A DNA stretch of 64,000 nt, taken from positions 11,348,001-11,412,000 of the forward strand of contig CM119371.1 of assembly GCA_051294905.1 (NCBI GenBank). The letters are read 5' to 3'. A program made the position numbers and the translations under genes. This DNA is from Botryllus schlosseri (taxonomy: Eukaryota). Below are positions 13,642 to 64,000 of the stretch, piece by piece. The notes under the pieces were generated by a model. That model was not told the origin of the DNA. It worked only from the letters and a program-made list of their open reading frames with translations, and did not search any database. Positions within the stretch are counted from its first letter, which is position 1, and the number at the start of each line of letters is the position of its first letter.

Positions 13642-14873
13642 CTACATCTTTGGTCTGTACTGTGTTTGCTGGGATAATTTTAAGCCAACTCGAACTTCGG
13701 AACTCATCTGCACGGTTACAGTGCAAATACCTTTCACTTTCAGTGGCTTGTCGCCGTACGCTACGAAAGAGCAATGGTATGCTGAGAGTCTCGGAGAGCC
13801 CAAAGTTTTGTACCCAGTCAATCCCACCATGGCGGAGGGTACCCCAGTGTCCCACTGTGTCGGCAACGGAATGCCGTTGATGCTGGAGTTGATCCAGAGC
13901 TGGTTTCCTACGCGTCGATAGAGTTGATCGATGTCGAAGGAGAGGAGTGGCACCGAGCAGAAATTGACGGATGTGACCAGTTGTGTGGCACACAGGTTTG
14001 CTATGACCTTTACGACCACATTTCTGACATACTGCATGTCGATATTGACAGTCTTTTCTCTGGTGATCGATGAAACAGCGGCTGCAGGATTTCAGTCTTT
14101 CCGGGAAGTTGCCTCGGGTGGATTTGGAAGGTTTTCTCCCCTTCTGATAACTTCCCGTCATTTTGTTGACGGTGGAAGTGTCTTTGCCGCTACTCTCACC
14201 CTGGATAACCCTATCAGTTTCGAGGGATGGATTGGTTTGTGCTAGACAATGCCGTCTCACATCCTCGTGCGGCGTTTCTTTAATGATGAGATCGCGCATT
14301 AGCTCATCAACGCAGCTCTGATCACAGCCATCTCTTGAGCATGTGAAGTTGCAATCTTTGGAGATTCCGTGTAGAGTAGCGATCCAATCGGCATACGACT
14401 GGCCCGGTTGCATTGTAAAATTCGTACCTGGCAGCTTGCACATGAATTGAGTCCTTGAAGTGTGTAGACAACTTCTCATTCAACGCGTCGAAGGTTTTCG
14501 CACTGACATCAGCAGCACCAAACAAATTACGTAGGAGCGAGTACGTTTCAGATCCGACCCATGAGAATAGACACGCTCCTTTCTTCTCCATGTTGGAAAT
14601 GCCGTAAATTGCAAGGTGATGGTTGAATCGTTGCAGATATTGGTCCCACTTCTCCTTTGATTTGATGAACGAATCAAACTAGGGAGCGGTAGATTCAGAT
14701 GTTGACGCACCGGAATTCAACCTCTGCGCCAATTGCGCCATTTCTGTCATGACTTTTGTCATTGCTTCGTCATGCTTTGCTTGTTGTTGCACCAGCATCT
14801 CTTGCTTCTTCGCTTGTTGTTGCACCATCATCTCTTGCTGCTTCTCAAGAATTTTCAATATACTTGCTTCCAT
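13642..14873 (-). pseudogene. Gag (two Zn knuckles) plus aspartic protease, frameshifted
   Basis: Pieces MEASILK..., WDQYLQRF, CSRCFIDHQRKDC, CQKCGRKGHSKPVC and the protease motif QWDTG are spread over several frames with an internal stop. Confidence 0.9.
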
Positions 14874-14901
14874 GATGTATCTCAGTCGCAGAAATAAATA
14901 A

Positions 14902-14921
14902 GAATCCGACATCTGACACCA
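14902..14921 (-). promoter_or_regulatory. Primer binding site, tRNA-Leu type
   Basis: TGGTGTCAGATGTCGGATTC lies 2 nt after the LTR end and resembles the tRNA-Leu PBS TGGTGTCAGAAGTGGGAT. Confidence 0.8.
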
Positions 14922-16489
14922 ATTGTTATGATCTTGATCTTGTTTGAACAATAACTCAATTCGTATGCTGATGTTTCGAATGCTGAATATTCGGTCTCCA
15001 TTCAATGCCGGAGTACCCCTGGTCTCTGTATGTTCAATGTGTTCGATAACAGACGGACGGACTAACGGACTATTCTCTGTGGTGGCAAAAAAGGTACATA
15101 TTCGAACGTTGACATATTACAATATATTGTGGCGTCATAATGAGTGATACTCGATTACTGGACTCGAAGCATAATACGTGATTCAGAATCGAATCACTTA
15201 GGTACTCGATTTTGCCCAGCCCTATTTAATATGTATCAGCTTAAATTTACATGCTGATTCAGTGCATGACACGCGCACTACCGGGTAGCCAAAAGTCTGT
15301 CTTGTCTATTCTATCTCTCAGTGGCCCAGCTATCGAGGATGATTTCATCAACACAGAGTTAAATATATGACAGGGTATAAGTCAATTGCGTATGTCTTCA
15401 TGCGCACCACATAAGTGGATAAATACTGCAGCGTGGTAATCTGGGAAATCATAGAGGTCACTCCAGACCAGGGGTTCACAACCTTTTTAACACCGTGGCG
15501 CCCTTTGAAAACTTTACAATATCATCGGCCCACCTATTACTTTCAAAGCTTCAAAATACTTAATAACATGTCATTTCAATTAAACAACTGGCGTATACAA
15601 TTATAGTGTTGCGGTCATATAAATCATAAATTTAAAAGATTATTATTTTGCGTATTTTTTGACTCACATGTTGGGAACCCCTGTTCTAGACAGAGTCTAG
15701 CTCCATATTAGGTAAGGTATTAAGTGAAATGCTCTCCGACGCGTCATTCTGAAAGTCGGCAACATGCCATGGGCCTGTTGTGAACCACCAAAGTATTATA
15801 GACGTCATAGAATGCGAAAAAACATTCACCATAATCTTCACTTAAAGGATATTGACCGAGCTAGAAGTACAGGTAGTAAAGAATATGGGAAATATGAAAT
15901 ATGAACGTATCCAGATTAGCATTATACTTGGACTAACTGTACAATAGACGTTTCAACGTGATTCTCGTTTCGCAAGGTGTATTCAATGCCATCTTTTGAT
16001 CAAAATGTACCGCGTCATAGCACCTAATTTGTGGATGAACTCGCTCCCTGCGTGAGATTCGCAGAAACATGTTCGATCTTCATATTGCAGGTATAATATT
16101 TGATCATGCACGTATACATCGAACCTATATTACAGGCCGATGTTATTCCTAATAGGACTTACGCCTATAGTGGTGCATATCAATAGTACTATAACTATGT
16201 CTACTACGAATGTGTTCGCAACTACATATTTGCTTCCTGTGTTCACGTAAACTATTAAAGCTAACATTGCCGCCAAGGAAGTATTTTTCATGCAAATGTT
16301 ATAGTACAATCGGTTCATAAATTGCTGTAGCGTAAGCGCACTTCATGCGGAAATGGTTAGACTATCGCTGACCTCGTAATATTTGTGTTGTTCACTGAAA
16401 GTTTGGTTGAATGGGAAAAACTTTCTTCAGGGACAACCGGACCCGTCGAGTGGTAGCAGGCATAGCATACATCACATCTTATAAAGTGC

Positions 16490-18639: not shown

Positions 18640-19905
18640 TCAGCCCTCAAGATTACCGAACCACGATCTGACATATCGATCTCGACCTCAGTCACATGCC
18701 GCCTCAGTTTTCGCTTGTCCTTTTACATTGTCTCGCATTTTTTACTTTCCATTCATTGTGCATGCCTCCTCTTTACATTGCCTATGCCAGGGTTGGGCAA
18801 ATGTTTAAGCTCGCGGGCCGCATCCATCATCTGAATCCCTTCGCGGGACGCATTGTGGTATAATCGAAATTACAAGCCACGAAGCAAGCTATTATTTGAT
18901 TATATAGTAACTAGCATATAGTAACCGTAGACATGAAGGCAATACACACACAAAAAAAAATTTAAACATTAATGTGATCACCGTACATACATCAGCAGCA
19001 TTAACGAGATTTTATAAGCTGGACATCCCTAATCAATTCGTCAAAATTAGGGACGAAAGTAGGTTGTACCGATTCTTAAGAAAGGATGGAAATTTGAATG
19101 TGGGAGAATAGATCAGCTCATATAGATATATTATTTTTCGGCGTTTGGTCAACTTCAGAACGCACAATGCTAAAAGCGTCATAACCATCATATCACCTAA
19201 ATACGTTTCTGTAAAAGACTTGCGGTGTCAAACATGCCTCTTCGCGTACTTTTGTAAACTGGTCATGCACGACATGATTTACTACTGTTTCCAACATTTT
19301 AATAATTCCTTGATTTATTTTGCACCTCATCAATTGATAAATTGTGCCTTTAATTGGGATGATCGGCATGAAATGGTGTTTCAAATTGCAGCAACAAAAC
19401 GTTTAGCTTTTTGTATTGATTTGTACATCTCATTATTAATGAGTTGAGACGGAGGTTATAAATGATTTGCACCCAACTGCGCATAGAGGAAAAATCTACA
19501 ACACACACATGAACCGTTTTTTCAACTACAGCACTGAAAGTTAGAGTTCTAAACTAAAATCACAATTGTGATCCGAACTAGAAGTTATGTCCGTTTTGAT
19601 GTTCTTGGAAGCTTAGCAACTGAAACTTTTCAAAATATGTTGGACTCCAGGACGGGTTATTATGCCTACAATAAATTTTTTATCAATATTTTATTACCTT
19701 TCACGATGCTTTAGTAGGCCGCACGAAATGGTGTCACGGACCGCATGCGGCCCGCGGGCCGTAGTTTTTCCCCCATGGTCTTGACCCGGATGTTTTTCTG
19801 ATTTCGAAGACTACACTAAGTCGTTTCAACACTTTCCTATATTTTCATAATATCGCAGTATTGTTGTTTTTAAATTACAAAATTATTTTTAAACTGATAC
19901 TGATA
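18640..19905 (+). mobile_element. LINE-like 3' end split by a hAT MITE (18788-19777)
   Basis: 18640-18787 plus 19778-19905 match the contiguous copy at about 59870-60140. The insert has CAGGGTTGGGCAA ends and is related to 41721-43809. Confidence 0.7.
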
Positions 19906-19910
19906 CTAAG

Positions 19911-22900
19911 TCAACGAGTCCCGTATAGAATATTCTCCTTCAAAACCGACCCGGAGGTTTGGACGTCGGCTTGTGCAAAAGTGTAAGTCGAATCGGTTGC
20001 CGTTGCATTTGCACTGTTAGTGTCGCATTTCGTTTCAGAACATGTACCATCGTTTTCGCTCAATCTCGTTACATCTGACGATTGCTTTCCTGATCCATCC
20101 ATTTCGTATATTTCATTTTCTTTCAACTCAGAGCTAGCATGCTGTTTTCTGTCTTTATTTCGTCCATTCCTAAACGACAATGAAATACTTTTATAAATAG
20201 GCCCCTACCTGTTTCACGTGAGAGTGCCTACTGATTCAGTGCATGGCTTGGGGCGGTATCCAACGGATGTCAGAGACCAGGGGTGGGTGGCCGACCGGCA
20301 GCCGTAGAAGGAAAATTGCGAGGCCGTCGACACGCCATGTAGTAAGTGATGTGTATAGGCAGCCGTCGACATGAGGATATTGAATTTACGATTTGACTCT
20401 CACGATTCAATATGACTCCACATTTCAATTTAAATATAGTAGCGCCCTTTGCAATTTCGGTGTCACAGTACAGATGTGAACAGCAGAAGAGAATGCATGA
20501 AGCGCTTCATATAGAAATACCAACTTGGAATCATGTGCTCCTCAGATATGAAAGTTTATTTAGTGTACGTTTTGGCGATTCTAATATATTGACACAAAAC
20601 CGACAATCCTGACGGGAGCCCAAGAAATGACAGCATGCATAAAAGTAATTATTAACTCTTGGCCCACCCGAAGATGCATCATTATTTATAACTTGCACTA
20701 AATTTTCGAAAACACTCCCACCATCTACTATACCGATGAATTTCATCACATGGGTTGATATTGGATAAATATTTCATTGTAATATGTTAATATCCAGACG
20801 TGGGTCTTTTGCACAACTGCTAATGTTGAGGACTAAATTCATTCCTGAATTTAAAAGAAGTTCACGTTAGGCGCGACTACCGAATCCCAGTAACTGTTCA
20901 TAGCATAAGTACTCGCAATTTCGGTGCAAGTAGTAAGCAGATACATCGATTCGTCCGCAGTTCGCCGGAAATGTACACAGGTGGTTTCAGATGAGTAGTT
21001 GGCGTCCAATTAGTTTATTACGACTATGCACTAGAATCCGGCCGCACAGTACATAAGTAATAGAAATGCGGCCCTGAATAGCAAAGAGGTAGGTCTCCCC
21101 TGTTATAGACAGATTATCGCACAGTGACATAGCTATTCAGGGTTATGCCATCGATATTAACTAAAATACAGAAGAGTGTATAAGTCAATCGTACATATCT
21201 GCAGTTGAGTCGATCAGTAACGAAGTACATTCACTTTTTTTGATTGGTCACAACGCAGTATCCGATACATGTAGTACAAAGCTATATCCGTAAGTGAAAA
21301 TGACGTATCTGTGAAGTCGTGATCAATCCACAACATTGTCACAAAGACGAATGAAATAGACATAGTTGAGGTTTTCCTCTTTTTCTTCTTACTCTACTGG
21401 TTATGTTTCAGACTAGTTCCACTCCTACTTGACAATTTTTAAGAAAAATACGTTTTCTAGTTTAAACGGTAGAAAATAGTTGTGGGATGAGTTTACACCC
21501 CTTTTATCAGTGAAATTGTTAAGCAATGCGTGAAATTTCCCCTGCGTCACCGTAACTGAATATGGTCAAAATATTGTAGCTATTTGCAGCATATATAGTC
21601 ATTTTGTATTATTCGTGAAGATGCATCTTGGAATTACGAAAGTGTCTTCAACTCCGATTAGCTGCTAGAAGTGTGGGACCCCTTGAACTATTCTACTTTC
21701 TGAAAAAAATTACTGAAGTATTTTTTAGCCTTTCATTTTCATATGCCACTTACAGCAGTGGTCTGTGGTTCCAATGCTTTTTGAATGTCGGAGCCGCATT
21801 TCAAACTTCAGAGTACGTATGGAGCCACATGAAAACACTCGAGTATTAGCTAATTATAACTAAAATTCTACGGTAGCTAGCCTACCTCTTGATCTCACCA
21901 TCCAGCTAATTCAAAAGCATGCACAATTCACTCATACTTCTATTGATTCTATATCGGTTATTTCAGCATTCATAGACACAGATTGGCGAGCGCTATATAT
22001 TGAAATAAAGTGAAAATGCATACTATTACAACAATGCTATTATGTCGTTATGCGAAAGCTCTTCATACTTTGCAGCAATGCTCCCTCTAATTTTTGACGA
22101 GTCTGCGCACACTCACCAACACTGCGCAGACCCTTGGACAACAGTGCGCAACGACTAAAAAAAGTCATCACTTTGCATTTTTTGTTTGCAACTGAGATTT
22201 TTTGTGCGCAGAGTTTCAGCACTGCGCATTTGCGCATTGCAATTTATACTTGACTTGAGCCGTTATTTCAATGTTGGTAAAATAGTGTCGAAATTGACTC
22301 TTCACATAGAGCAGTGGTCGAGAACCTATGGCTCGCGAGCCATATATGGCTCTTTTGGGTATAAGATATGGCTCTTTACCAAATTTTTAATTTTGTAATA
22401 AATTTATCAATATTGCAGCACCTTGTTAGTAAATTTTCATACCGGCCAGAATAATTGTTCTCGTGGTAGCCTAAACATGTCTTTGAGAGTTCAATACAGT
22501 TGGGAATCTAGGGTTAGGTCTTGTATCCTCTTTTATATATCCTGAAATTCAAAATTCAAATTAAAAACAAAGCCATAGCTATCCATGTTCTTGATTAGTG
22601 CGGAGCGGATCGACAAATTCTCTAGTACGGCTCCGATCCGGCTCCGGCCGTATCAGGAAAAAGTACTGATTCGGCTCCGGCTAAAAATGAAAAAGTCCGG
22701 CCAGAAATCCGGCCCTACACGGTATGGGGGTTCCGTGAATTGATAACTATCCCTCGTTTATCTTCTCATGGCTCGGCGGTTACTTTCGTGTGGTTGGTTT
22801 GTTGACATGCTTATTCATAAAGATTCTGGCCGTATCAAAAAAGTATTGATCCGGCTCCGGCCGTAACAGAAAAAGTACTGATCCGGCTCCGGTCCGATCT

Positions 22901-25900
22901 GGCCGAAATTGTGAAAATCCGGCCGGATATCCAATCCGGCTCCGGTCCATGCTCCGCACTAGTAAGTATCTTTATAGTACCGCCGTTAAAATGTAGGTGT
23001 GTAGCGCAACGTTTTATTAGCCGAATACTGGAGAAGTCGATCAATATTTAGATATTCGCAATCAGTGCGACAATTGCACTTGAATGATATCAGTGATTAC
23101 AATTCTAAGCTATTTACGATGAGTTGCGCTGTCACAGGTGGTGCTTGGCCCGGCTGTGCTTCACCTGTGCCTTAACTCTCCTTTGGCACTTTATTTTCGC
23201 ACAATAACTTTTTAAAATTGCTTGATTTTCGGAGCAAACATGTTCAAAATCTACTTATTCATAAAAGTCGATAGAAAATACCAATAATCATTGAAGGTTT
23301 CAATGCATGAACTGCTGTAGTGACCATGTTTGGCTCCACATAGGCATGTGAGCAGAGAAAATATGCTGCATACTACGAATTCCATGTAATAGTGCTACCA
23401 ATACGTCACAAATTTTCAATTGTGACGTAACAGTCGATTGACATTTATGGCTCTCTGGGAGTCACATTTGACAATATTTGGTCAATATGGCTCTTCGGTC
23501 TAAAAAGGTTCCCGACCACTGACATATAGGATATATAGATGTCTATGTCCAGCAGAACTCAAGATATATCCTTGTATGACGGGTATTCACCCATGCGTTT
23601 GATGCTAGTCTGCAAGAATTCTCCTTCCCGGTTTTCAGAAGCGACCTTGGACGGCTTTAGACATAACTAATATCCCTCATTTAACATAAATATCAAGTAA
23701 TTGGCTATAATAATTCATGGATAAGAAAAACAACGTCGTATAATATTTTTAGCATATTTACAGGTCAATCAGAACCGCAAGAAGGCCAACTTGTATCCGC
23801 AGTTGGGAATCACTGACTTTGAAATTGCTACTTCTACTTGTAATTGACTGAAGATCCGAGTTCTATATCTACCTGAGTAGCAACGCTTACTATTGGAGCA
23901 ACTCTGGACATGCCAACACGTAATATGTTAAACACTGAAGGGCAGATACATGTGATATTATGAGATCCATCCTATATATAACGCTACGAATTAATTAAAA
24001 TAAATCCCGAGCGTCATGCCTGAAGTCGGAAACAGGGCGCATTGGCCTGGTGTGACTATCCCAAATACTATATCGTTACAGGCGGGGCGTATCTCGTTTC
24101 ACAATAGTTTTTACGTAGAGGATACCGAGTCAGAAATAGGTCATGTCCGTAAACTTACTGATGTTTTGATTTCCCAAGTACCATAGTTATCGATACCTAA
24201 GACTCGCGTTCAAATAACAGAAGAATGGAGATTTGAACGTGATTTTGGTTTGGTCACAATGTATCATGTTTTACAATTGATATATTGGTTGAGTCCGTAT
24301 TTTTCTAGTAATTTCGCAAGTAACCCGTTTATGTCCCACTACTGAATGTATGTGACACCTCAGACCATTTTATATTTTTCAAATTTACTCTCTTGAGTAA
24401 TTTTCAGACCCTACTACGTTTTCTCCTTCTAGAAATATTTGGGGAATATATTGGGAATCACTTCTTCCACCCTTATTTAGTGGGAATAAATGTCACTATT
24501 TATTCTCACACTTCTGCGAGAGTATAATATGGACTACCTTTGCCCCTCTTGTGATATACGTTCGTTAGTTTGTTCATTTTATCATATATGCGTCACAATT
24601 GCAAATAATTTGAACGTTTTCAGTTTGGTCAACCACTACTCATACTTTTGCTACACAACCGGGACAGTCGAAATACAATATGAACTTATTCTTAATTTCA
24701 ATATTCTCTATGAGATGCATGAATAAGTAAATTTCATAAATAATGAGCGTGCAATGATTTTGAAGATGACGTAGTTCACTTCACAAGTTCTTCACTAACC
24801 TCTTTGACAGCTGCAGCCAACACTTACCTAATACACATTATTATGATGACTGCTACGAAAATCAGCAGCAGCAGGCTTGCTGTAGATCCAACGATAATAA
24901 TTATATCTCCGACGGATCGCGGGTCCGCGTCTAAAAGGAATGAATAGACGTCAGATTCGTCTAAATTTTACGGGTGAAAACCCGTCTCGGGCAGTCAGAG
25001 GTGGTCAGTAACGAAGTACTTCTACTTTTTGAAAGTACAAAAGTAGTTTTCATCTACTTCTGGTACTTACTCAAGTAGATCTGATTTTCTCTACTTCTAC
25101 TTCTACTTCGTAAAAGTTTGTGATATACTTACTTACTTTTCGCTATTTTCAGTTTGTCAAGTAGAAGTAGTTTAATCCCCCAATATGAAAGATAGCCTGA
25201 GGAATTTCGGGGCTGTTTTCACGGAGTATCAACATTCAATTTTCATAAAAGTCAAGTAAATCCCAGAAATTTTGTTGTGCTTCGCGCATAGTAGTGGTGG
25301 GGTGACATATATGTTTTCATGAAAGTATCAGTGAATATAATTCAGGTACCGGATTGCTTAGTTCCTCTCGCACCTCATTGTCGCCCATATCAAATATTTC
25401 ATCACAGTAAATATGGCCCATCATAACGTTTGAAACTACCGATTCGCAATCGAGCAGTTACCAATCACATCGTAATCTAGCAGCATATTACGTCTCTTGC
25501 TAATCTGGAAAATCCAGCTTTTTTAACATACACCTGTTTCGGCAGATCACCTTTGAAGCTTTATGGACAAAATACATGAAATATATTTTCTGCTTTTTAG
25601 AAGTGGTATTTGTATTTCACTTTTAATTGCGAGTATCATATTTTGAGTTCTAATTATTTTCAGTTCTTTTGTCTGCAGAACATACATGTTGAAGCTTAAA
25701 AGCAACTGTAGCAATGCCTCTATTTTCCGAAAATAAAGGTACACTAAATATAACTTTTACGATCCACAATATTTGTTATTTACGTATACTAATCGCGAAA
25801 AGTGATGAAACCGTATCCGATACAACTTCAACGTATTGCTCTTCGCCTGAACTTGGGGCCTTATAATATGGGGTAGGGTGCCATATCTAACGGGGTCTTC

Positions 25901-28900
25901 TAGTAAACAAAGGGTTAGTATTGCATTCTCATATCAATACTATAATTTTCATCCCATGGCGCGAAACAATGCTTATGCTGTCGAAAATTGATACCTCCTG
26001 GAATGCATCAATACGAATCAAGCTCTTTGCACCTGCCGCATAGCTCAATTCGCAGCTTTTGACAGTCCATGCGAACGAATTAACCCTTTTAATGGGGGGG
26101 GTCACTGGTGACCCAAGTTCAAGTTCATCCCGCAATTTCTCCAGAGATATATGTCGTAGCGGACTGCTTTTGGTTTCTATGAAAAGCCTGCTATCTTCTG
26201 ATTAATATGATACCTAATTTGAAGGTACAGGGCATGAAAATTTTCGAATACCGACGATCTTACATGAAGAGTTCGGCTGAAAATACCCATACCTAAAATT
26301 TCCAGATATTTTCCGAGTGGAAAATATAGTCAGAAATTCTGCCAGAACATAGGAAGTCGACTTGTACGGTATTCTGTGTGATTTATCACCGTTTGGAACA
26401 TCAAACCTTGTTCTGGGGCGTTTTCTGAGGGGGTTTGGTAATTGTGGTCACGCTTCGGTGATTTTCAAGAACATAGCCAAGTTCAAGACGGAAAATGAGT
26501 CATAAACTGGTTTACTATGCCTGCAAATAGTGGGATATGACAAGAGAAAGTATACCACGTTGTTTTATGCCATTAACCGGGTGGTAGGGGTCCGATTCGG
26601 TATTGATCTTGAACTTGACCATTATGACCACTCACTGACCACGCCCATATGTAAATTTTTCATGTAATATTGATTTTTCGATGTCTGGCGAGCCGCGCGG
26701 TTTACGGTCATGGTTGACGGCTTGTTTGAAACCAGGCAACGGTGGCTACGCACTGAGGCATCATTTTTGACTCTCTGACGCCATCCTGGGGGCCAGAGGG
26801 GAGAAATGAGAGAGAGAAAGAGATTTTTCAGAGAAAAAGTTTGTATATTTAGTCGTATAAAGAACCCTAGACATGGCATGGGGTGTCGATCGAGGGTGGA
26901 AACGGTAGACGGCTATACTCCGGCCACTTTTAAACTGGAATAACTCAGATTAAGGTCTTGGTGAGGTCACGGTATGAATTTGAAAAGTGATGGTCAGTTC
27001 TGCAAAATCGGACCCCCCATTAAAAGGGTTAAGACTGTTTTCAAAACTACTTACTTACTTAAAAGTAGATTTAAAGTCAGTCAATTTTACTTCTACTTCA
27101 AGTAGTTTTAGGTGGCTTATTGAAGAAGTACTTCTACTCGTATTTGAGTAGATTTTTTCGTCGCTACTTCTACTTCTACTTGAGTAGTTTTCTTGACTAC
27201 TTTGACCACCTCTGCGGGCAGTTGATCTGCGGTATGTTCGATTGTGCCGATAAAATCTACTCGACGGCCTTACAGAAATATATATCTAAATGTACGAGAA
27301 TCAGCGGAGTGATGCTTCGTACAATCTCTTTCATTTTCCGATCGCGTCACCCTAACTCTATATTACAGATGCCTATGTCGGCGGTGTCAAACAAAACTAT
27401 TCGTGGCCTATATACTTGTCAATTTTTTGACAAGGTCGGATATTTTTAAACGAATATTTCCATGATCAATTATTATCACACAAAATTTGGACATCGTCAC
27501 AGTGAAATAAATTAGCGAGCAATAATGATTATTTTAATCGAATAATATATTCATATTTAAATAACCACGAATATTTTTGCTGACGCACGTCAAGGGTAAT
27601 CGTCAAGAACTAGTAGAGATTTCAAATGAACTAGCGTAAAAATTTCGAAGAATATTGCAGCGATGTCATACTTGGTGAAGGATACAGCTATTAATATGAG
27701 AAGCTTTTTCGAAATCTCTATTATAGTTTCTGACGATTACCAGTGACAAGAGTCGCCCAAAAATATTTTAGATAATCCTAATCATTTTACTTGAAAAATT
27801 TTAATGGAAACATGAAAATCGCCAACCATCACAGTTGCATATTATTTTAGAGGTAAATTTGTAGTATTGCTGTAGTCGGACTTCGAGTCGGAGTCTGCGA
27901 AGAAAACAATGGGCCTAGAGGGCTGGAGTCGCAGTCCGTGCGTTCAACGTTTCCCGATTCGTAGCTGAAGTTTGAGTCAATGATAAATCCTCATCGTCGC
28001 TTAGGACTATGTAAAATCATTTCGATTAGTTGAATGAATCACTAAAACGTTTCATGAGACGAAGTGAAATCCCCTGCCAACTTAAGTATAAGCATGAATG
28101 CAAATTAATTTCTAAAAATAGTCACACAAACCTATCAACTGCGTCGTGTTGAAGCCGGTTGGGGCATGATTTGTATCGGTCCGTGCTGAGGCCACACGAA
28201 TGCTACTATTGTGATATCCAGGCGGAATAGATTTTCTGGTCGTGAAAGTAAAAGACGCTGAAAGAAAATGAAATATTGACCAATTTGGTGAAGTCAATCA
28301 GTCATATTAAAAATTGGAAATGCTCTAGTATGGAATTGGAATGAACTGTGAATGATATCAACCAATGCCCAAACATTCTAAACCCTTCTCTGAGCAATTA
28401 AAAGTTTCTGCAGGTATTTTCTTATGGGCATCTGTTCATCCGTGTTCACTGTCGATATGTCATATCCATAGTCCGAGGTAGTGGTTGCAACCTCCTTGCT
28501 GACCGATGTCAAGACAATAATTCTTACCTAACTGCAATAGATTTATCTTCCAGACTCCTCCTCCATCTGATCCGCGTTATCGGTGTCTTGATGAAATCAA
28601 GAACGAAAATCGAAAGAAAGCCGCTCTAACGAACTTCCAATCATGCGAATCAAAATACAAAATATCTTCCCGGTGTAAAATGACCAACGTAGTCGAAACA
28701 CCGTTGATATTGATAACAAAACATCTCAACAAGCTCAGAGGTGGTCAAAGTAGTCAGTGTTGGTAGTTGGTTGGTACTCAAGAACATGACGAAGTGACGC
28801 AGTCATTTATCCTCAATTAAAAGTGAAAATATAGATTTCCAAGCCACGCAGAGATTTTGTTGTCTGATAAATACACTACTTGAGAAAGCTGTTTCAAAAA

Positions 28901-31750
28901 GTAGTTTTGGCGAAAGATCGCGTAGTTTTAACAGGCATCAACGAACGCAAAGTGGCTTATAACCCTAGAATTAGCTGCAGTTCTCGAAAATATATTCAGT
29001 TACTGTGATACAGGTGTTATTTACCCGAATGATATGATATAACAAGGACAAAACCCTACCCCAAAACTATTTTGTTACTTTAAAAATTCTAAAGTGCGAA
29101 AGGTAAGAGGTTTTTACCTGATGCCATGCTAAGTACATGTTACATTATGGCGTGAAGACATTACCATTTAGTACAAAAGTATGTGCACTACTATTGAAAA
29201 CTCAAGAAAGTAGAAGTACTTCGTTACTGGCCACCACTGTGAATAGAAAAACATAAAATACTTCCGCTGATAAGAAAACAATCGGGCAGACCTAATTTAG
29301 TTATACCTAGTGTTGCATTGGTCGTCGATGTTGTCGTCAATGGCGTAGTAATGGTAGTGGTAGTAGAAGTATTCGGAGGACGAAGAGTCGTAGTAGTAGT
29401 AGTAGTAGTCGGAGGAGGACGAGTATCCTCTTCGTCTATCAAAAAATAGGTACGTTTTGTCGAAAGTATATTGGGCTGACTAGGCCATTTCAACGACGCT
29501 GACTAATTCCCATTTGATATATTGATTCATTTAGTGAAAATCCGGTACGGATCAGGAACAGTGTCATAAAGTTTTTCAATCATTAGATATGTATATATCC
29601 AAACTCTTTCAGTTACCATTTTTAAGATGGATACTATTCATCTTCAGGCAAACCTGGGATGAAACACGATGTGCAGTCCTGTCACAGTGACAAAATATAC
29701 AGCCGTAACTACTAATACTTCCAAAGAATGTGGACATTTAGATTAATTTTTCCATTGAAATTCATCGAAGTTTGGAGAGCATCGTTTTATTAAGTGGAGC
29801 GACAAAATCTACCTTATACTGTTACTTTATAGCAGTAGTTCTTGAACCTTGTAGAGCGCCACCCAAATCTGAGTTTTTATGACATTTTGCGAACCAAGCC
29901 TCACGCATTGCGATAAATGCATTTGTATGTTAGTATGATACGTCCTTACGGGTATGCAGGAAATAGAGAAGGTGGAGACAACCAATTGTACGCAACGCAG
30001 TTCTTTGAAATTTTATTCATTACGAAAAGTCATTGATTTAGCGATGTTGATGTCACAAGATATTTATCCTACATATTAATATTTATGGACGACTGTGTTG
30101 TGTTGGGCTCTATGAGTATACCAATGTTTTCAGACCTTTTCTGTTAACGAACTCATTGCAGGGAATTAATTCGTAAGCTAAGGTCTCCAGCATTATTTTC
30201 AACTTGGGAGCAATTTGACACAATCAAGCATTGAAACGCATATCTATTTGTGAATCACAAACACATGCACACACACACGTGGTCATTGCGTAGTGAACGA
30301 AGTTTGGTATCACTCGATTCACGAACGAGCCGAAGTAGGTATATGCCAAAATACAATCCACGAAGTAGGCCTACAATTATTTTTAGTGCTATCTCAGCCC
30401 ACCTCATCTGATATACCGGTGCATATAATATAGGTGGTGTCTTCGTAAACTTAGGGCACCTAATTACACACCTGAATTGATTAATGTTCATACGTAATCA
30501 CTCTTGTGAGCGTGGCGCTTATGGGTGGTAGTATACGAAACAAAATGCACTGCGAAATTTATAATTCACGCACAGTCGATCGCGCCAAGCGCGGAGAACC
30601 ATTTTTGTTGCAAGAAATTCAGCAAATATCACATACATATTGAGTGTGGCGAGACAGCGTAGTGGTATAATCCACAGCTACAACACCAATGGATAGTGAA
30701 TTCGAGTCCGACCGAGGTCGACTACAGAATTCCTACCTAAATGTTGGAGGTTTAGGCCCCTCCTCGCCAACTCATCAGCGGAAGCAGTGTCTTACAAAAT
30801 CGTAGAAGTGGGGCATGCTACAAGTCGGCAGTTACTTAATCAAAAATAAGGAATATCGGAAATGGTGTAAATGACCAGAGTTGACAAACACCATGAATAC
30901 CATAAACAACAACAGCATACATATTAAACGATCGCTCTGATGTAAAAAATCTGGTAGATTTACAAAAATGTCTCTGTAAATTTTACAACGAATTACAGGT
31001 GGCAGCCAATAACTGCGCGTAGCTTATAATTTAACATATTAATGTGTATTATTACCTTAATTTAGCTGTAAAGTCAATTTACCAAAATTTGTTCGCAAAA
31101 TTACTGACAGTTACTCGTTATTGCAGAGTACCAGGCAACTAGCAAAATTGAATAGCTTCCAAATCCCTGCAGCCAACGTATATATGCAACTGAATGTTAC
31201 TATGATATCATTCTCGTGGTGATTTGACCTGATTCAACGACGTTCGCGAAACGGGTAGGAAAAATGGAACTGTGTGACCCTAGTCCCTCCGTAGTACCAT
31301 TTTTAATGTAGTGCATAATAGGATACAAGATACAACTGACAACCGCAGCTAATGAGGTTGCACCATAGTCATTATAAGGCTATGCATAATTGACTATACC
31401 ATCGAATGTGACTATGGAACGGAAACTCCCGTTTTCACATGGTTAGGTCACGCTTGACTAATTCTAGCGCTTTTGGTCAATCGCAACAACTTGCCGAAGG
31501 TGTGATGACATGCGAAATTACTACCCTAACAGTACCATAGACTGCATTCAGCCAAGGTGCAGGGTATACCGACTTGCTAGCCAAACCAGGAGCGTCTTGA
31601 TGTTGCACCATGATTTTCCATTTTGAAAATTTCCGTTTCACTTCTCGCAATAAAGATGGTTATATTATTACGTGCATGTATAGCTAGATAAAGTGAAATC
31701 TTATTACCGATTACTAAAAACTAGTACTTACCAGATTGCGAATTTCCCAT
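19911..31750 (-). CDS. Spliced gene for an approximately 211-aa signal-less single-pass mucin-stalk membrane protein with a Tyr-motif tail; exons 31750-31732, 29435-29307, 28257-28132, 24930-24828, 20169-19911
   Basis: All introns are GT-AG and the phases 1,1,1,2 join in frame: MGNSQS / DEEDTRPPPTTTTTTTTLRPPNTS...NATL / ASFTFTTRK...NTTQLI / DADPRSVGDIIIIVGSTASLLLLIFVAVIIIMCI / RNGRNKDRK...ENEIYEM...STYTF...ENILYGTR*. An in-frame TAA lies two codons before the ATG. Confidence 0.75.
20278..21102. mobile_element. hAT-type MITE
   Basis: CAGGGGTGG...TCCCCTG ends. Absent from the paralogous site near 15290. A shorter relative lies at about 50086-50300. Confidence 0.7.
22312..23521. mobile_element. 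hAT MITE with a nested CCGG-rich MITE (22596-22961)
   Basis: CAGTGGTCG...CGACCACTG ends with TSD ACATAGAG/ACATATAG. The inner element has TAGTGCGGAGC...GCTCCGCACTA ends. Confidence 0.8.
24404..24428 (-). CDS. Candidate alternative terminal exon giving a short polybasic tail (R)RRKRSRV*
   Basis: TTTCTAG acceptor about 400 bp after the TM exon; phase 2 is compatible. Confidence 0.45.
24996..27214. mobile_element. Non-autonomous hAT element with AGTAG/CTACT-rich subtermini
   Basis: CAGAGGTGGTCA TIRs and perfect 8-bp TSD CGGGCAGT. A shorter relative in opposite orientation lies at 28736-29239. Confidence 0.9.
26084..27028. mobile_element. Non-autonomous piggyBac-like element
   Basis: TTAA on both sides. 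TIR CCCTTTTAATGGGGGG. Confidence 0.85.
27570..27778. mobile_element. Small palindromic MITE
   Basis: Imperfect inverted arms GTAATCGTCAAGAACTAG and TAGTTTCTGACGATTAC. A related arm lies at about 54350-54410. Confidence 0.55.
30642..30915 (+). mobile_element. Full-length tRNA-derived SINE (family 1)
   Basis: A-box-like TGGCGAGACAGCGTAGTGG, B-box-like ATTCGAGTCC, (AAC)n tail and 10-bp TSD CATACATATT. Confidence 0.85.
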
Positions 31751-31873
31751 TTCTTAGTCAACCAGTTGTATACCTTTGTAAATTGTAATGCTATAACTTA
31801 TTGCTCTGCATCAGTTATGCACCAGATGCCTAATGCCTTATTCTGTTTAATATTGGAGCATAGGCTTATATAT

Positions 31874-32196
31874 TAGGGTTACCACACGTCCTCCTTTTGG
31901 AGGATTTGTCATATTTTTCAGGTTTTTAAAAATGTCTTCCGCCTAAATGTCCTCCTTTTGGGCAATTCATCCTCCTTTCTGGCTTTTAGAGCTAAGATAG
32001 TGGATAGATTCGAGTGAAAATGGGCATATATCGCGCTAAATAGGGAATTCGAGGTTCGAACGATAGTGACGACGATTTTCTTTTTTTTTCCCAGTCAACC
32101 AACCATAATATCATGGAAAATTTACCAATTTATCCGGATTTTACTCCAGTATTATAAGTTTGGATATTTTCCCGATTCCAAAATATGGTAACCCTA
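31874..32196. mobile_element. hAT-type MITE (TAGGGTTACCA ends)
   Basis: TIR TAGGGTTACCA with flanking direct repeat CTTATATAT. Same end type as 62116-63035. Confidence 0.8.
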
Positions 32197-32254
32197 CTTA
32201 TATATTAAACGGCCACCTGGGTGAAAATCAGATGTTCGACCTTTTTGTGATAAC

Positions 32255-33037
32255 TAGGGATCTTTTTTTTAACATGACAAAAAAAGTCAAAATTTGGCCA
32301 AAACTGTAGATTTTGCACTGTCGATGACCTTATCATTTGACATTCTGCAGCTTGTAGCCTACTTTAGGCCTACCGTTGTAGACGGCTCATTGTCTGCTCA
32401 TTGTGAATCATAAACATTCAAATAAAACAAAAGGTTGACATGGTGTTATGCTCAACTTTCTTAAAAATCCGAACTGAAGCGAAACTGCGTGGGCATTGGT
32501 TCTTATATCAACAAGCGCATGATGAAAGATTGAGATGTAGACACCATTGTTAAAATGAAGCAACACGGTGTGTCACCAGCAGTGTACGCGCAACTTCAGT
32601 GCCGTCAGCCAACAACTGCTGCAGTTGAACGTTCTTTCTCTATTCTTGGCAAGCTACTTAGTAAGGACAAACACTTTCTACCCGAAAATGTAGGCAAGTA
32701 TCTTTCGTTGTACTACAATTTTTTAAAATTATTTCTACCACGATGCGTAATGTAACTGCTGGAATTATTCATAGGGCCAGATCCCGTTATAATGGAGTTT
32801 TTCATGTAAACATTTGTCAGTTTTTAGGCAAAAATTTTATTCAGGCCAAACTACTTCGTAAGGACAAACAGTTCCAACCAGAAATTAAGATAAGTAGTAC
32901 AATTCTAACATTATGCGGGAAAACACCCAATTTGAATACGTTAGGTCAAATTTGGTCAAAATTTAAAAAATTAAGATCAAAAGATGTCAAGATTTTGATT
33001 TTACAGGTCAAACTCCTTCGTCAAAACCATCCCTCTA
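32255..33037 (+). mobile_element. Deleted hAT element with a C-terminal dimerisation-domain remnant
   Basis: ORF remnant CRQPTTAAVERSFSILGKLL. Inverted homolog of 38902-39757. Confidence 0.8.
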
Positions 33038-33417
33038 ATGATAAAAAGTTTTAGTTTTATACGCATTCCAATCGGTGAATGCGAGTCAAATGCATCAACT
33101 CCAAAGGATATATATGCCATCGGAGTAGCGCGTCCCATTTACGTGTGCTACCGTCTTGTGACTTCTGGGTGCAACATGAGAGCAGTACGTATCCCAGCCA
33201 TGAAATATAGGCCATATTCGTAGGAATAGATGTATGTGACTCGTTTTCACGGACTGGAATGGGCGTGAAAGCAACGTAATTTCAACAGAAGGTGGCGTTT
33301 ACCAGTCTTGCACCTTACGATGTGGTGGAAAGCGGGAAATTCCATTGTTTTATTTAACAATGATGGCTATGCATGCGATGCCTGGCTATCTGCGATTACT
33401 GGAGAAAACCACTGAGG

Positions 33418-34268
33418 TAGCGGTTCTCAACCGGGGGTCCGCGAAGCATTTTCAGGGGGTCCACGAAGCCTCAAAATAGTTGATAACCTAATTTGTATTA
33501 CATTGAATTCGAAAAATCACGAGGCGGGTTCGCTTCATTACTAGTAAAACTCCAGAGCTCACATCAACAGAATGGTCACCTGAGATGAAATATCCTACCG
33601 TGCAGACTCATCTTAATTGTGACATTGCCAAGGTAGGCTACTGATATAAACATTTTGCTGTTTAGAGATGTTTTGTTGGGGATTGTTGAAAAAATGTTTG
33701 GATGAGTAAGGTCAATCACGGTGACTTTGAAATGTTTACAAAAATCCATTCTCTCCTGTGATATTCACAACCATTTTCCATAATAACTTCAAGATAATCT
33801 GCTCGAGCTAGTTAGAAATGAACAGGCTTGACGTTATATGTTCATAAAAAAAATGTTTGTCAATTTTGGTGCGCTATTTGATCCGATCATACCCGAACAT
33901 GAAGCCGGAAGCGACACCTGTTATTCGCCACCACCTATATTGTGAAAATAGATTTTCGGCACTCGTTCATATCAAATTGAAGACGTGAATTTTCAAGACA
34001 CAGCCACGTATTTCAAGAAATGCAGTTGCAGAATTCGCTTCGAAATAACAGAGGTCAACCTAATTTTTACATTAATAGTATGATATTATTTTCAAGAAAA
34101 TTTTATTTGATGCTCTCATTATCACTAAGCCTACAGTTATCATTTGCACAAGACAGATGACGATTGCACGATAATTGAGCTAAATTTGAGCTAAAACTTC
34201 GTGGGCGTCCGTGGGGTCCGTGACGGTGCGAAAGGGGTCCACGAAGACAAAAGGGTTGAGAAGCACTG
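33418..34268. mobile_element. hAT (Charlie-like) non-autonomous element
   Basis: TAGCGGTTCTCAACC...GGTTGAGAAGCACTG ends with TSD CACTGAGG/CACTAAGG. Confidence 0.8.
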
Positions 34269-37200
34269 CACTAAGGGCTTGAAGGACGACAAGCCATGTT
34301 GGATTTTAATTGAAACTGATCGAGATAGCTGGCCCACTTATATTTGATTTAGTTCTTCCGCTGATTAGGGACAAAGTCAAAGTGAACGGGTAATTAAAAT
34401 TGGGAAGACAATCGATTTATGTTTAGACCACATGGAGTTTCGAACTTTGATCGTTTTGTCGTGAATATCTCATAAACGTGGGTCATATATCAACAAAGCA
34501 TTGATTAGTGCTCCTTTACTAATAAAACATCTGATCGGAGGAAAATACCGTCATTGACGAACCATATCTCTACTGCACTGTCACTGTCTTCGAACATTCC
34601 TTACTCAAAGATTTTCTCAGCTGTGTCCTATCAAGCTACAAACGATGCTGCCCTGTGTAGTCTACTACAGATTTAATTGTTTCCTCCTATTCAAATATGC
34701 TATTATGCCGGTTGTTGCTACCAAGGATGTATGTTTCATCCAAATCTCATACTACAATCAGGTCATAAATGCGTGCAGAGTAAGCCCACTTGCTGGCGGA
34801 AGTGATCGGATTCGACCTCGTAATAATTGTATACTCGCATTGTTCACTTTCAGATTGATGAAGAAATGATGTTGCTTTCTTCATTTACAACCACGTACAT
34901 CGATTGATAGCATACATAGCTAATAACACACGAGATAAAGTATAGCAACATATGCAATTCTCTATAGTGGATCATAATAATAATAATGTTTTTGCTACCA
35001 TTCCTAAGGTCAAAGATAGTTTAGTGATTCACAGCCGAATAAATAGGTATTTGCACAACGGCAAGTAATAAATGTCAACTTTAGTCTAACCTCTAGTCTT
35101 TGCCATGAATAGCTTATCTGCCTAAATCCTTAGTTCGATAAACTTATGGAGTTAATGATCAACTCATGCACTCGGGTTAAAGCTTGCTACTCGTTGGTGT
35201 GGCAGCGGCGCGTCTCCTCTACAGACACCGAAGCCAGGCAGGATGTATTGAATGACGTTTTATGTCGTGTATTAGAGCTCATAGCAACAAATAGATGAGC
35301 TGGAAAGTGACTATCCAATACGTGCCTCATTCATAACTCGTACCTACCAACTTCAAATATAACGCACAATCACGTATTAAGCGTGTAACAGAGTGGAAGG
35401 TATAACTGTGCTCTGCGTGTACGAAGCACATTCTTGGGGATCGGTGAGTCGCTAACGCGACATTGCGAGTCGTACTTATCTTCGTCGCCTTTATTGAATA
35501 ATACAATGAACATTTATTGTACATAAGCTCGAATGACATGTGAGCATATTGTTGACATGCAAAAATGATGACTCTATGATGCCAAAATACCGTGACTAAG
35601 CCGATGGTGCTGCACAACTTGTAAAATGTGCATGTATAATATAAGTTTAATGCAAGAGCCTTGTACGAAAGAACAATTGCTTCTTGTCCTTGGTGCCACT
35701 GGTTTTGTTTGTTTTTAACACCGTTAGCACGTTCATGCAGTTTGTAGTTTGAACTAGGTTACTAGGAGTATAAACGAAATACCAACCGCCGCAATAAACC
35801 AGTTGAAGCTATCACCAAGTGACTACTTCTGATAATTGATGTGAATTCCCATTGACCCGACTGTTTAGTGTCGTGGTTATCGTTGTATATGTCTTCGTGT
35901 CCTTTAAAATAATAAGGTTCGATATTGTTGTTCTGCGTCAATATACATTGTATGATGTTTGATTCCTAACTAATACGAAGGTAATCTTTTGACCAAATCT
36001 CCGAACGATGCTGGTTCACAGAGGCCTCTGCAATACCAGTTTAGGGCCCGTTACAAGATCGGGAAGTCAAACAAGGGGAAAAAGTATGAGATAATTTGGT
36101 CAAAGGTGGTTACAGGAGTCCGCTCGAGTAGGCCTATGTGCTCTGCAGTCAGTGGTCCGTGGTACAGTGGTGTGCCGAGAGGGATTCGAAGGTCGAGAGC
36201 GACGTAACTTAAATTAGGATATATATTTGTATGTTTTAGTGATTTTGCCATTCCGAAGGTAACTTTTGAAATTGTATAGAAGTAGAAGTAATATCAAAAC
36301 TTTATACCTAATTAAAAGTGGATATGGTGACTTTTAAAGTCTACGTAAACTCTATCGAGCGAAAATAGAAAACACGAAGATGTGATAGGCAGCCTACTCG
36401 TACACAATTATGACTAGGGATACATTTAAAACAAACGTTTTTTAAACAAATGCCTTTAAAAATCATAATTGTGTTTTTCTCAAACGTATAGTATAAAATG
36501 TCATATTTGTGTAGATAATTTCGGAAAACATATAGCATGAGCCTAAAGACGATTCGCGCCCAGTATAGTCGACGTATACGATATATGGAGTGGATGGAAC
36601 CCTCAAAATCGTCGTCAGTTCGACAGTTATAGGAAGTAGACATATATCATTGATATGGAACGGGTGTTCTGATGATGACCACCGCCGACGGTAAAAATGC
36701 TGTAGCGATGTAATCCTGGTTAAAGATATTTTCGGTATGTTATGACAGAGGTCGGAAGCCCTTTTCGTCGAAGGAGCGATATTTAACTTCTATTTTCAAT
36801 TGTCAATGTCAATCCACTGCGACGTCACAATCAAATATTCATGACGTCATGGCTGAAAAAACAAACAATAAAAATCATGTTTTAAACAAGGGCCGTGTTT
36901 TGCTTCAAATGCAACCCTAGGTATGGCCTATGTAGTCCGGGGAAGTAGTTTAGAATGTCGTCGCGGACACATATTAGTATATCAGAAATGATACAATTTA
37001 AATTACTGCATGCATCTTGCGACTAATGCTAGTTTTATAGTCTGTCCTCGTAGTTTCAACATTAACCCCTAAAACTATTTTGCTGAGAGTTGTAGAACTA
37101 CATTTAATACCTTCTCTCGTGAAAATAGGTGAACGGCAGGTGACTGTTAGTCCTAAATTCGGACTATCCAACGAGAGTAAGATGCTTATGAAGTCTGATC

Positions 37201-38152
37201 TTTTTCGCAATATCAAGGTTTAGACCAGAAACACACTAAAGCTGTCCCAGATTGTTAGATAGGCTACTATATCGTCGGGCAGGATGATAATAGATACGGG
37301 CTAATCCTTGTCGGCTAGATGATACGTACATTCTTCATACAAATAGAATCTAATCATGGTTTACTTACAACATTTACCTTCTACTACTCTCTCACGGGCC
37401 CACCTTGATTTGATCATGAACTAAATCATCACACATTATGCACACCCATCTTGTATTATCAAATTATCATATAGGTTTAACAAAAATCTGCATATTGCAA
37501 AAGATTGATTACGAAACAGACTTGAGTAGATACTATTACTGCAATGAGTAACAAACCTTGCATTCAAGTATAGGACTAGGCCTATATCAATATATATCAC
37601 TGGCTATAACAAAAATGAAGTCGTCACTCAGGGATAATTAGACTCGTCTATAGATATCCATACCTTTATTGACACCAGTTGTTAGACATTCGGTACAGCA
37701 AGCAAAAGTTCGCGTATTCAATAGATCGAACTACCAGCATTTGAATATCAATGAATTTTGCCGAATATGAAAAAAAAGGATATGGAAATAAAAATTGACA
37801 ATCCTTCGCAAATAGCATACATTTTCTCGTTGAATCCATTATAAAAATATTTCAGTGGCAATAACAATATGGTACATTTCGATGGAGCAATTTGGTAGGA
37901 ATTCGGAACAGCGCATCAAACTTTCCCTATTCAAGAGATGGAACTGCAAAAACTTAAATTTCAATGACTTTGACGAAATATGAATTAAAAAGAGAAGAAA
38001 ATAAACGCGGTTGCAAGGGCCTAGCAGATTTATAGTCTTAGGAAGTTCTACACCGTAATACGTCTGAAGCCAGCACACTGCCCAATGCGCAAGTTTTTAG
38101 GATAGGCTGATTTAGATGGATATGTCGATACAACAGATCTCATCGGTCTGTA

Positions 38153-38694
38153 GCAGGGACGGGCAACTTCACAGGTCGGAGAGCCGGATATGGGAAAATG
38201 AAAAACTTTGCGGGCCGGATTACAGAATATCTATCGTAAGCGCGTATTTATTCACCTATACAAGGAATAAATAGGTCTTAATGTAAACTTCAAGATAAAA
38301 GCGTAGAGACTAAAAACAGTATTTAATGAATTGAAGTCAATCAGACATCTGTGGTCGGTCAAAGTTGTCAACAAGTTCCTTGAACTTAGGCTGCATGTCG
38401 CATGTAGAAACCATTCGTAAAGACCGCACGTAGACTTCGGTCAGTTCGGAACGCAGCTTCATCTTCCTAACGATCACGGTCGAAAATATATGTAGGCCCA
38501 TACCCGAACAGAGCAAATAGTTTCATGTCTATCTTTCTCAGGTTGGCAAACTTGAATTCATTCTGTGGCGCACTAAATTTGTCAATACTTTCAGAATATA
38601 ATTTCACTTTCAGGGTATAGAAACTCTCTGCGGGCTGGTCAAAATCCCTTCGTGGGCCAAATCCGGATGGCGGGCCTGAAGTTGCCCGTCTCTG
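38153..38694. mobile_element. hAT MITE
   Basis: CAGGGACGGGCAACTTCA...TGAAGTTGCCCGTCTCTG ends. The left end resembles that of 40906-41715. Confidence 0.75.
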
Positions 38695-38901
38695 ATTTAT
38701 AGCCTACAAGCTTGTACTTATTATACTATTGCAACTGTGTAGTCTTCATCCACATCGAAGTAGCATGGATTATTTTACTGGATGAGCATCGATATTAAAC
38801 AATATTGTGTCGTTGGAGATTCAATTTGGCGTAACAAAGAAAATCCTTTCACAATGTACGGGTGCGTATTTTGATGACATGAGAGCAGGGTAATTTATTA
38901 C

Positions 38902-63955: not shown

Positions 63956-64000
63956 CTTTTAATGTAGAACCAATCGGTCTTTCACATGTCGTAAACGCGG

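What the first reader, a model, noticed from the sequence alone, without database searches (positions are those of the whole stretch)
19911..31750. Hidden gene for a signal-less mucin-stalk membrane protein with a myristoylation-type N-terminus on the apparently extracellular side
Seen: five small exons scattered among TEs join in frame to about 211 aa. The protein starts MGNSQS, has a Thr/Pro stalk with four sequons (NTS, NAT, NSS, NTT), one hydrophobic helix, basic residues after it, and no signal peptide. Established: MGxxxS is the N-myristoyltransferase consensus, and the positive-inside rule predicts N-out (type III) topology. A myristoylated N-out ectodomain with a polybasic juxtamembrane segment is the layout of reovirus FAST fusogens p14/p15 and is unusual for cellular genes. 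Inference: an undescribed cell-surface adaptor/glycophorin-C-like family. The FAST comparison is architectural only, and this ectodomain is longer.
Basis: partly seen in the sequence, partly recalled or inferred. Interest (0 to 1): 0.8.

Follow-up and report, generated by a model that had tools for sequence, protein, structure and literature searches.

The report
Signal-less mucin-stalk membrane adaptor gene
A spliced, transcribed animal gene with no named relatives encodes a small protein with one predicted membrane helix and no secretion signal, which likely holds a sugar-coated, possibly fat-tipped stalk outside the cell and uses three conserved tyrosine motifs inside as docking sites; it is unlikely to be a cell-fusion protein.

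Summary
The gene is real. Five minus-strand exons with GT-AG introns join into 211 codons, and RNA reads support three of the four junctions. Reads run from exon 2 through exon 1 into an in-frame stop six bases before the ATG, with no splice at the AAG. So MGNSQS is the true start of the main transcript and there is no signal peptide. A second allele changes residues 4-5 but keeps Gly2 and Ser6. New here: three unnamed database relatives of the last exon (42-46% identical) keep the tyrosine motifs (77% identity around them, 31% elsewhere). That supports a cytosolic docking tail and N-out topology. The FAST comparison fails: the ectodomain is 100 residues against 20-40, almost free of hydrophobic residues at its tip, and has no strong amphipathic helix. 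Myristoylation is only predicted: position 7 is acidic and no relative's N-terminus could be seen. Lipidated N-out cellular proteins are rare but reported (B96Bom, b5R). Verdict: likely an undescribed type III glyco-stalk adaptor family, probably tunicate.

The parts
31754..31756 (-). In-frame TAA six bases before the ATG, present in the transcript
   Evidence: Sequence; inside the 30-letter loose-end consensus of X3 and X8, which covers 31733-31762
31732..31750 (-). Exon 1 coding part: start codon and MGxxxS motif; the exon extends at least 12 nt further 5'
   Evidence: joined to exon 2 in reads; X8 allele differs at codons 4 and 5 only
29307..29435 (-). Exon 2: Thr/Pro stalk, sequons N28 and N46, built partly by a 36-nt tandem duplication (29354-29424)
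   Evidence: read depth confined to the exon
28132..28257 (-). Exon 3: rest of the stalk, sequons N66 and N86
   Evidence: exon 2-3 joint in X8; its donor joint to exon 4 not observed
24828..24930 (-). Exon 4: predicted membrane helix (residues 101-125, 24904-24830) ending next to a single Cys (candidate palmitoylation site, inferred)
   Evidence: exon 4-5 joint in 16 reads
19911..20169 (-). Exon 5 coding part: basic juxtamembrane patch (5 K/R in the first 15 residues after the helix), 86-aa tail, stop
   Evidence: three relatives
20100..20123 (-). Tyrosine motif 1 (Y147, ENxIYE, an NxxY)
   Evidence: E, N, I, Y, E invariant in 4 of 4 sequences
19974..19994 (-). Tyrosine motif 2 (Y188, TY[TS]F)
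   Evidence: T and Y invariant in 4 of 4; F kept in 3 of 4
19917..19940 (-). Tyrosine motif 3 (Y208, K[ED]NILYGT, an NxxY) at the C-terminus
   Evidence: Kept in 3 of 4; the fourth sequence ends before it
19314..19695 (-). Two candidate polyadenylation signals (19690, 19314) in the presumed 3' UTR
   Evidence: Pattern match only; 3' end not mapped

Best explanation
This transcribed, spliced gene encodes a 211-residue protein with no signal peptide that likely inserts N-terminus-out through its single predicted helix, likely displays a glycosylated stalk whose tip is predicted to carry myristate, and likely works as a cell-surface adaptor through three conserved tyrosine motifs. Shown: exon structure, transcription, start codon, motif content, tail conservation. 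Inferred steps: (1) NMT acylates Gly2 on the ribosome before the helix emerges; (2) the helix acts as a reverse signal-anchor, the basic patch stays cytosolic, and the unfolded, Cys-free 100-aa N-terminal part threads into the ER and gains N- and O-glycans; (3) at the surface the stalk (roughly 25 nm if extended, a rule-of-thumb figure) is a spacer whose exact sequence matters little, and the myristate either pins the tip back into the outer leaflet as a loop or touches a neighbouring lipid surface; (4) the two NxxY motifs and the TY[TS]F motif bind PTB/FERM- or SH2-type partners, for signalling or endosomal sorting (motif-to-partner links recalled, not tested). I put the N-out adaptor part at about 0.8 and functional myristoylation at about 0.6.
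For: Start fixed by an in-frame stop in the mRNA. No unique signal-peptide-like first exon upstream in the window: of 17 ATG-to-phase-1-donor candidates (GTRAG donors only), the three most hydrophobic (57352, 41361, 39094) lie in repeated elements. Charge bias across the helix +5 to +6 within 10-15 residues. Four sequons on the N side; the one tail sequon is not kept in any of 3 relatives. Identity within -4..+3 of the three tyrosines is 50 of 65 pairwise positions against 54 of 173 elsewhere. Allelic changes are mostly amino-acid-changing in exons 1-2 (11 of 15 codons) and mostly silent in exon 5 (5 of 7), p = 0.07. Both alleles fit NMT positions 2-6 as printed in bioRxiv 10.1101/2020.08.25.266692. 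Type III insertion of glycophorin C and synaptotagmin 1 is described in PMC5399781 (passages). A myristoylated N-terminus can cross the membrane (B96Bom; title only).
Against: No experiment on topology, lipid or partners. Position 7 is Asp and positions 7-10 are all acidic, where the motif prefers Lys/Arg; Ser6 can suffice, as for Lck (PMC2133112, passages). No relative's N-terminus was found, so conservation of MGxxxS across species is unknown. Two changes missing both Gly2 and Ser6 among positions 2-6 is expected about 3 times in 10 by chance. X3's 11 loose ends agree only 0.74 with their consensus, lower than three allelic differences explain, so a minority with another upstream sequence is possible. 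The relatives were picked by similarity, which favours the motifs, and are not independent. The exon 5 difference list was truncated, and exon 2 differences near the repeat may be misalignment. No motif is a canonical ITIM or hemITAM as defined in PMC12582321 section 13. Myristoylation hinders SRP binding in b5R (PMC3817238 introduction).
Confidence: 0.5

Rival explanations
1. The same N-out glyco-stalk adaptor, but the MGxxxS start is incidental: unmodified, weakly modified or without function. The protein would then be an ordinary glycophorin-C-like or TRAP-like orphan.
For: Asp at position 7 and four acidic residues at 7-10. The motif arises at 12 of 1875 ATGs by chance. The N-terminal region tolerates many amino-acid changes. 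Other orphan tyrosine-tail membrane genes were noted in this genome (unchecked notes).
Against: Both alleles keep Gly2, Asn3 and Ser6. The motif sits on its own 19-nt coding exon. NMT acts co-translationally on whatever fits (PMC3817238 introduction).
Confidence: 0.3
2. An alternative first exon with a signal peptide, outside the window or with a weaker donor, splices to exon 2 and gives a conventional type I mucin-like receptor as an important isoform.
For: X3 loose-end agreement of 0.74 leaves room for about a third of reads carrying other letters. The phase-1 acceptor of exon 2 is typical of modular ectodomain exons (recalled). Only 6-13% of each run was read.
Against: The consensus in both informative runs is exon 1 with its upstream stop; X8 agreement is 1.0 over 5 reads. 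Low agreement can also come from mixed alleles or adapter run-through, which I could not separate.
Confidence: 0.08
3. Myristate anchors the N-terminus on the cytosolic face and the protein is type II (N-in, C-out). The Thr-rich part would be a cytosolic spacer.
For: Most myristoylated proteins are cytosolic, and Lunapark keeps its acylated N-terminus in the cytosol. Long N-terminal domains favour hairpin insertion (PMC5399781).
Against: Charge bias points the other way. Four sequons would go unused. The conserved tyrosine motifs would lie outside the cell.
Confidence: 0.07
4. A cellular FAST-like fusogen: the myristoylated tip inserts into a neighbouring cell and the basic patch and tail drive pore formation.
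For: MGxxxS, predicted N-out helix and 5 K/R in the 15 residues after it meet three of the screening criteria of bioRxiv 10.1101/2025.03.14.642691. A short Pro run lies near the tip, as in the p15 polyproline motif.
Against: The ectodomain is 100 aa, outside the 10-50 aa filter and the 20-40 aa range. It has 1 hydrophobic residue in positions 2-30 and best hydrophobic moments of 0.44 (ectodomain) and 0.38 (tail) over 11 residues. A glycosylated stalk would hold membranes apart (inference). The gene is intron-rich, not a retroelement ORF.
Confidence: 0.03

Closest known systems
Transmembrane adaptor proteins (LAT, NTAL, LAX, PAG; PMC3342071, abstract and passages)
   Same: One helix, no enzyme domain, tail with several tyrosine motifs, a Cys at the cytosolic end of the helix
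   Different: TRAP ectodomains are 4-16 residues; here 100 with four sequons. One Cys rather than CxxC. No YxN Grb2 site in the tail. No sequence link found.
Glycophorin C (type III single-pass protein; PMC5399781, passages)
   Same: No signal peptide; internal helix targets and anchors; glycosylated N-terminal part outside (predicted here)
   Different: No Pfam or PDB sequence match. Longer stalk and a tyrosine-motif tail; glycophorin C's 4.1/PDZ-binding tail and lack of myristate are recalled, not fetched.
Reovirus FAST proteins p14/p15 and retrotransposon sORF2 (PMC7830690, passages; bioRxiv 10.1101/2025.03.14.642691, passages)
   Same: MGxxxS start, predicted N-out helix, basic patch after it
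   Different: Ectodomain 100 aa against about 30; no amphipathic fusion peptide or strong tail helix; cellular five-exon gene
Myristoylated N-out cellular membrane proteins: Bombyx GPCR B96Bom (title only, in reference lists), cytochrome b5 reductase (PMC3817238 introduction), predicted group A PfEMP1 (PMC2940729, passages)
   Same: An acylated or acylation-motif N-terminus on the non-cytosolic side, without a signal peptide
   Different: None is a single-pass protein with a mucin-type stalk and tyrosine adaptor tail; B96Bom is a GPCR and b5R is an ER/mitochondrial enzyme
Botryllus fester co-receptors FcoR (PMC12582321, passages and section 13; supplements not read)
   Same: Tunicate single-pass proteins with polymorphic outer part and tyrosine-motif tail
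   Different: FcoR are type I with three Ig domains and a Sushi domain and carry ITIM/hemITAM/core motifs; none of these is met by the window protein

Membership tests
Type III single-pass membrane protein | No N-terminal signal sequence | tested here: met
   In-frame stop before the ATG in reads; no hydrophobic stretch before residue 95. SignalP itself was not available.
Type III single-pass membrane protein | One internal membrane helix | tested here: met
   Single hydropathy peak, residues 101-125
Type III single-pass membrane protein | N-lumenal, C-cytosolic orientation | not testable with these tools
   Predicted from flank charge, sequon placement and tyrosine conservation
N-myristoylated protein | Fits NMT motif at positions 2-6 | tested here: met
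   Both alleles (motif as printed)
N-myristoylated protein | Lys/Arg at position 7 (preferred, not obligatory) | tested here: not met
   Asp7; exceptions
N-myristoylated protein | Motif conserved in orthologues | tested here: inconclusive
   Only last-exon fragments of relatives found; one further allele keeps it
FAST fusogen | Ectodomain of about 20-40 (filter 10-50) residues | tested here: not met
   100 residues
FAST fusogen | Hydrophobic or amphipathic fusion peptide and tail amphipathic helix | tested here: not met
   1 of 29 hydrophobic at the tip; moments at most 0.44 and 0.38, with no FAST control run alongside
FAST fusogen | Polybasic patch, 3 or more K/R in 15 residues after the helix | tested here: met
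   5 of 15
FAST fusogen | Induces syncytia | not testable with these tools
   Needs expression
TRAP (LAT/NTAL/PAG type) | Ectodomain of a few residues | tested here: not met
   100 residues against 4-16
TRAP (LAT/NTAL/PAG type) | Non-enzymatic tail with conserved tyrosine motifs | tested here: met
TRAP (LAT/NTAL/PAG type) | Tyrosines phosphorylated and bound by SH2 proteins | not testable with these tools
   Needs experiment
FcoR | Signal peptide, Ig and Sushi domains, ITIM/hemITAM/core motifs | tested here: not met
   No Cys in the ectodomain; the three Tyr contexts fit none of the patterns
Glycophorin C family | Sequence similarity of helix and tail | tested here: not met
   No Pfam match above cut-off for any of exons 2-5 or the 4 aligned tails; no PDB match below E 0.5. 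Exons were scanned singly, which lowers sensitivity.

The most novel reading that the evidence does not exclude
A new class of cellular receptor in which a fatty-acid tip is held out on, or loops back, a 100-residue glycosylated stalk, senses contact with lipid on another cell, vesicle or microbe, and reports it through a conserved three-tyrosine tail: a lipid-probe receptor with no folded binding domain.
Probability: 0.2. Interest if true: 0.75.

Novelty: new variant of a known kind. Interest (0 to 1): 0.45.

Why it matters
Very few cellular membrane proteins are known to be myristoylated (PMC3817238), and I found no report of one that puts the lipid at the end of a mucin-type stalk (searches, 47 of an open-access library; subscription papers are not covered). 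If the lipid is real and outside, this small protein is a clean test case for how an acylated, 100-residue N-terminus crosses the ER membrane and what an outward-facing myristate does on a cellular protein. Either way it defines an unannotated family of signal-less tyrosine-tail surface proteins in what is probably a tunicate, relevant to where chordate adaptor signalling came from.

Tried and rejected
No whole genome was held, so paralogues outside the window could not be sought; none lies inside it. No RNA holder was listed by index; raw-read runs were laid instead. Word-indexed protein searches with the tail found nothing among longer or similar-length proteins, nor did the four-sequence profile among longer proteins. 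Two further phmmer hits (P0004, named a gliding-motility-like protein, and P0005, unnamed; 2061 and 1564 aa, E about 1e-4 to 1e-3, 8-9 stretches each) were dropped as compositional matches; 3 of 5 hits were kept. Metagenome scans: 137 pattern matches, none confirmed; 119 loci with the C-terminal motif, none a relative by profile. ESM Atlas gave no usable hit twice. The one Pfam hit on the tail (Dicty_spore_N, below cut-off) and two PDB hits (thioesterase, E above 0.5) are noise. The first exon 3 and 4 boundaries I tried were off and gave stops, corrected. ITIM/hemITAM reading rejected. No structure or complex prediction was run: the protein is mostly low-complexity, could only be submitted exon by exon, and no partner is known. 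The B96Bom paper itself was not held. Earlier scan notes on this place or sequence: none.

Full report
Observation. The gene lies on the minus strand. Exons at 31750-31732, 29435-29307, 28257-28132, 24930-24828 and 20169-19911 have GT-AG introns and join to 636 nt, 211 aa plus stop. The first three junctions are phase 1 and the last phase 2. The protein begins MGNSQS. Its first 100 residues are 40% Ser+Thr, 10% Pro and free of Cys, with sequons at 28, 46, 66 and 86. One hydrophobic stretch spans 101-125. Net charge is -2 in the 10-15 residues before it and +3 to +4 after it. The 86-residue tail has three tyrosines (147, 188, 208) and one more sequon at 180. The introns and flanks are full of dispersed repeats; the exons match none of them.

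Transcription. Four bulk RNA runs filed under the same species label were laid on 19300-39299, reading 6-13% of each. Among the 15 joints shown of 39, two are this gene's: exon 4-5 in 16 reads (X7 4, X8 12, X3 0, X5 0) and exon 2-3 in 6 reads (X8). The exon 3-4 joint was not shown and remains unobserved. The second lay was on exon 2 alone. Depth stops at both exon edges. Reads leaving the 5' edge carry exon 1 followed by 12 more genomic bases (X3 11 of 14 laid reads, X8 5 of 13; X9 laid none, X6 one). Those bases include the TAA that stands in frame six bases before the ATG. One caveat: the X3 reads agree only 0.74 with their consensus (X8 1.0). Three allelic differences would not lower it that far. 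In the window, 17 ATG-to-GTRAG phase-1 candidates lie upstream of exon 2; the three most hydrophobic sit in repeated elements.

Alleles. The X8 allele changes Ser4 to Trp and Gln5 to Leu and keeps Gly2, Asn3 and Ser6. That fits a kept acylation motif but has about a 3 in 10 chance of arising anyway. Exon 2 differs at 13 of 129 positions in X8, plus a 6-nt deletion, and 9 of 13 codons change the residue; some of these lie in the tandem repeat and may be misaligned, including the loss of the N28 sequon. In exon 5, 5 of 7 listed codon changes are silent and none touches a tyrosine motif, though that list was truncated. The contrast is suggestive only (p = 0.07): a loosely constrained stalk and a constrained tail.

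Relatives. Word-indexed searches found nothing. An exhaustive phmmer search with the tail gave 5 hits; 3 are unnamed single-contig Logan proteins at E 8e-13 to 5e-5 and 42-46% identity, and 2 long repetitive proteins were dropped. The three begin to match where exon 5 begins, so they look like last exons read from genomic contigs (inference). They keep ENxIYE (4 of 4), TY[TS] (4 of 4) and K[ED]NILYGT (3 of 4; the fourth ends earlier). Identity is 50 of 65 positions around the tyrosines and 54 of 173 elsewhere; selection by similarity inflates this somewhat. The tail sequon is not kept in any relative. No N-terminus of a relative could be obtained. No Pfam, PDB or Atlas family fits. Earlier scan notes call this genome a sea squirt; I did not test that.

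How it likely works. With no signal peptide, the helix must both target and anchor, as for glycophorin C and synaptotagmin 1 (PMC5399781, passages). Charge bias, sequon placement and the conserved tyrosines all point to N-out, C-in. An unfolded, Cys-free N-terminal part should thread through the translocon (inference). NMT acts co-translationally (PMC3817238 introduction), so a fitting N-terminus would be acylated before the helix emerges and then carried across, as reported for B96Bom (title only). Both alleles fit motif positions 2-6, but position 7 is Asp where Lys/Arg is preferred; Lck shows Ser6 can be enough. Two of the tail motifs are NxxY, the type read by PTB and FERM domains, and the acidic context of Y147 suits Src-family kinases (both recalled). 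None is an ITIM, hemITAM or FcoR core motif as defined in PMC12582321 section 13. I commit to a surface adaptor on a glycan spacer, likely lipid-tipped: about 0.8 for topology and adaptor role, 0.6 for functional myristoylation, 0.5 together.

FAST comparison. It meets three screening features (MGxxxS, predicted N-out helix, 5 K/R in 15 residues) but fails the defining ones. FAST ectodomains are 20-40 residues and are themselves the fusion peptide (PMC7830690); the sORF2 screen required 10-50. Here the ectodomain is 100 residues with 1 hydrophobic residue in positions 2-30 and weak helical moments. It is not a FAST protein and is unlikely to work like one.

Novelty. The kind, a type III protein with a tyrosine docking tail, is known. 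The combination of a long mucin-type stalk, a myristoylation-type tip and this tail was not found in five searches of the open-access library or in earlier scan notes. Myristoylated N-out cellular proteins are rare but precedented. Supplements of the papers cited were not read; those of PMC12582321 list FcoR tails and could bear on the motif comparison. Verdict: new variant of a known kind, interest 0.45, rising to about 0.75 if the outward lipid proves real and functional.

Noticed in passing
window 13616-15116 (-): Overlapping broken ORFs that look like gag and protease of an LTR retroelement (likeness recalled); no Pfam match above cut-off for the two ORFs scanned.
   Followed up: partly
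window 8500-11187: DNA-transposon-like remnant: 170-bp inverted ends (8506-8672 and 11015-11181, 92% alike) around interrupted ORFs at 8917-10470.
   Followed up: partly
window 44950-46710: A second element with about 315-bp inverted ends (87% alike) and interrupted ORFs at 45540-46310.
   Followed up: partly
window 1594-2149: Tandem array of 3.9 copies of a 143-bp unit, 86% matches.
   Followed up: no
window 29354-29424: The stalk exon contains a 36-nt tandem duplication (12 codons) and shows a 6-nt deletion in 3 of 5 X8 reads, so stalk length varies between alleles.
   Followed up: partly
window 29386: Four X3 reads leave exon 2 in mid-exon into letters unlike exon 2 or 3 (agreement 0.73); a divergent allele, a paralogue or a mixed consensus. 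Unexplained.
   Followed up: no
window 47704-48069 (+) and 53952-54485 (+): Open frames of 122 and 178 codons with no Pfam match; not covered by the RNA lays.
   Followed up: partly
window 54573-55837, 60872-63997: A segment of about 1.2 kb recurs in pieces at 78-87% identity, with a roughly 500-bp part present three or more times.
   Followed up: no
window 32306-33019 and 38932-39630: Two inverted copies (81% alike) of a 700-bp element that draws many RNA reads from copies elsewhere.
   Followed up: no
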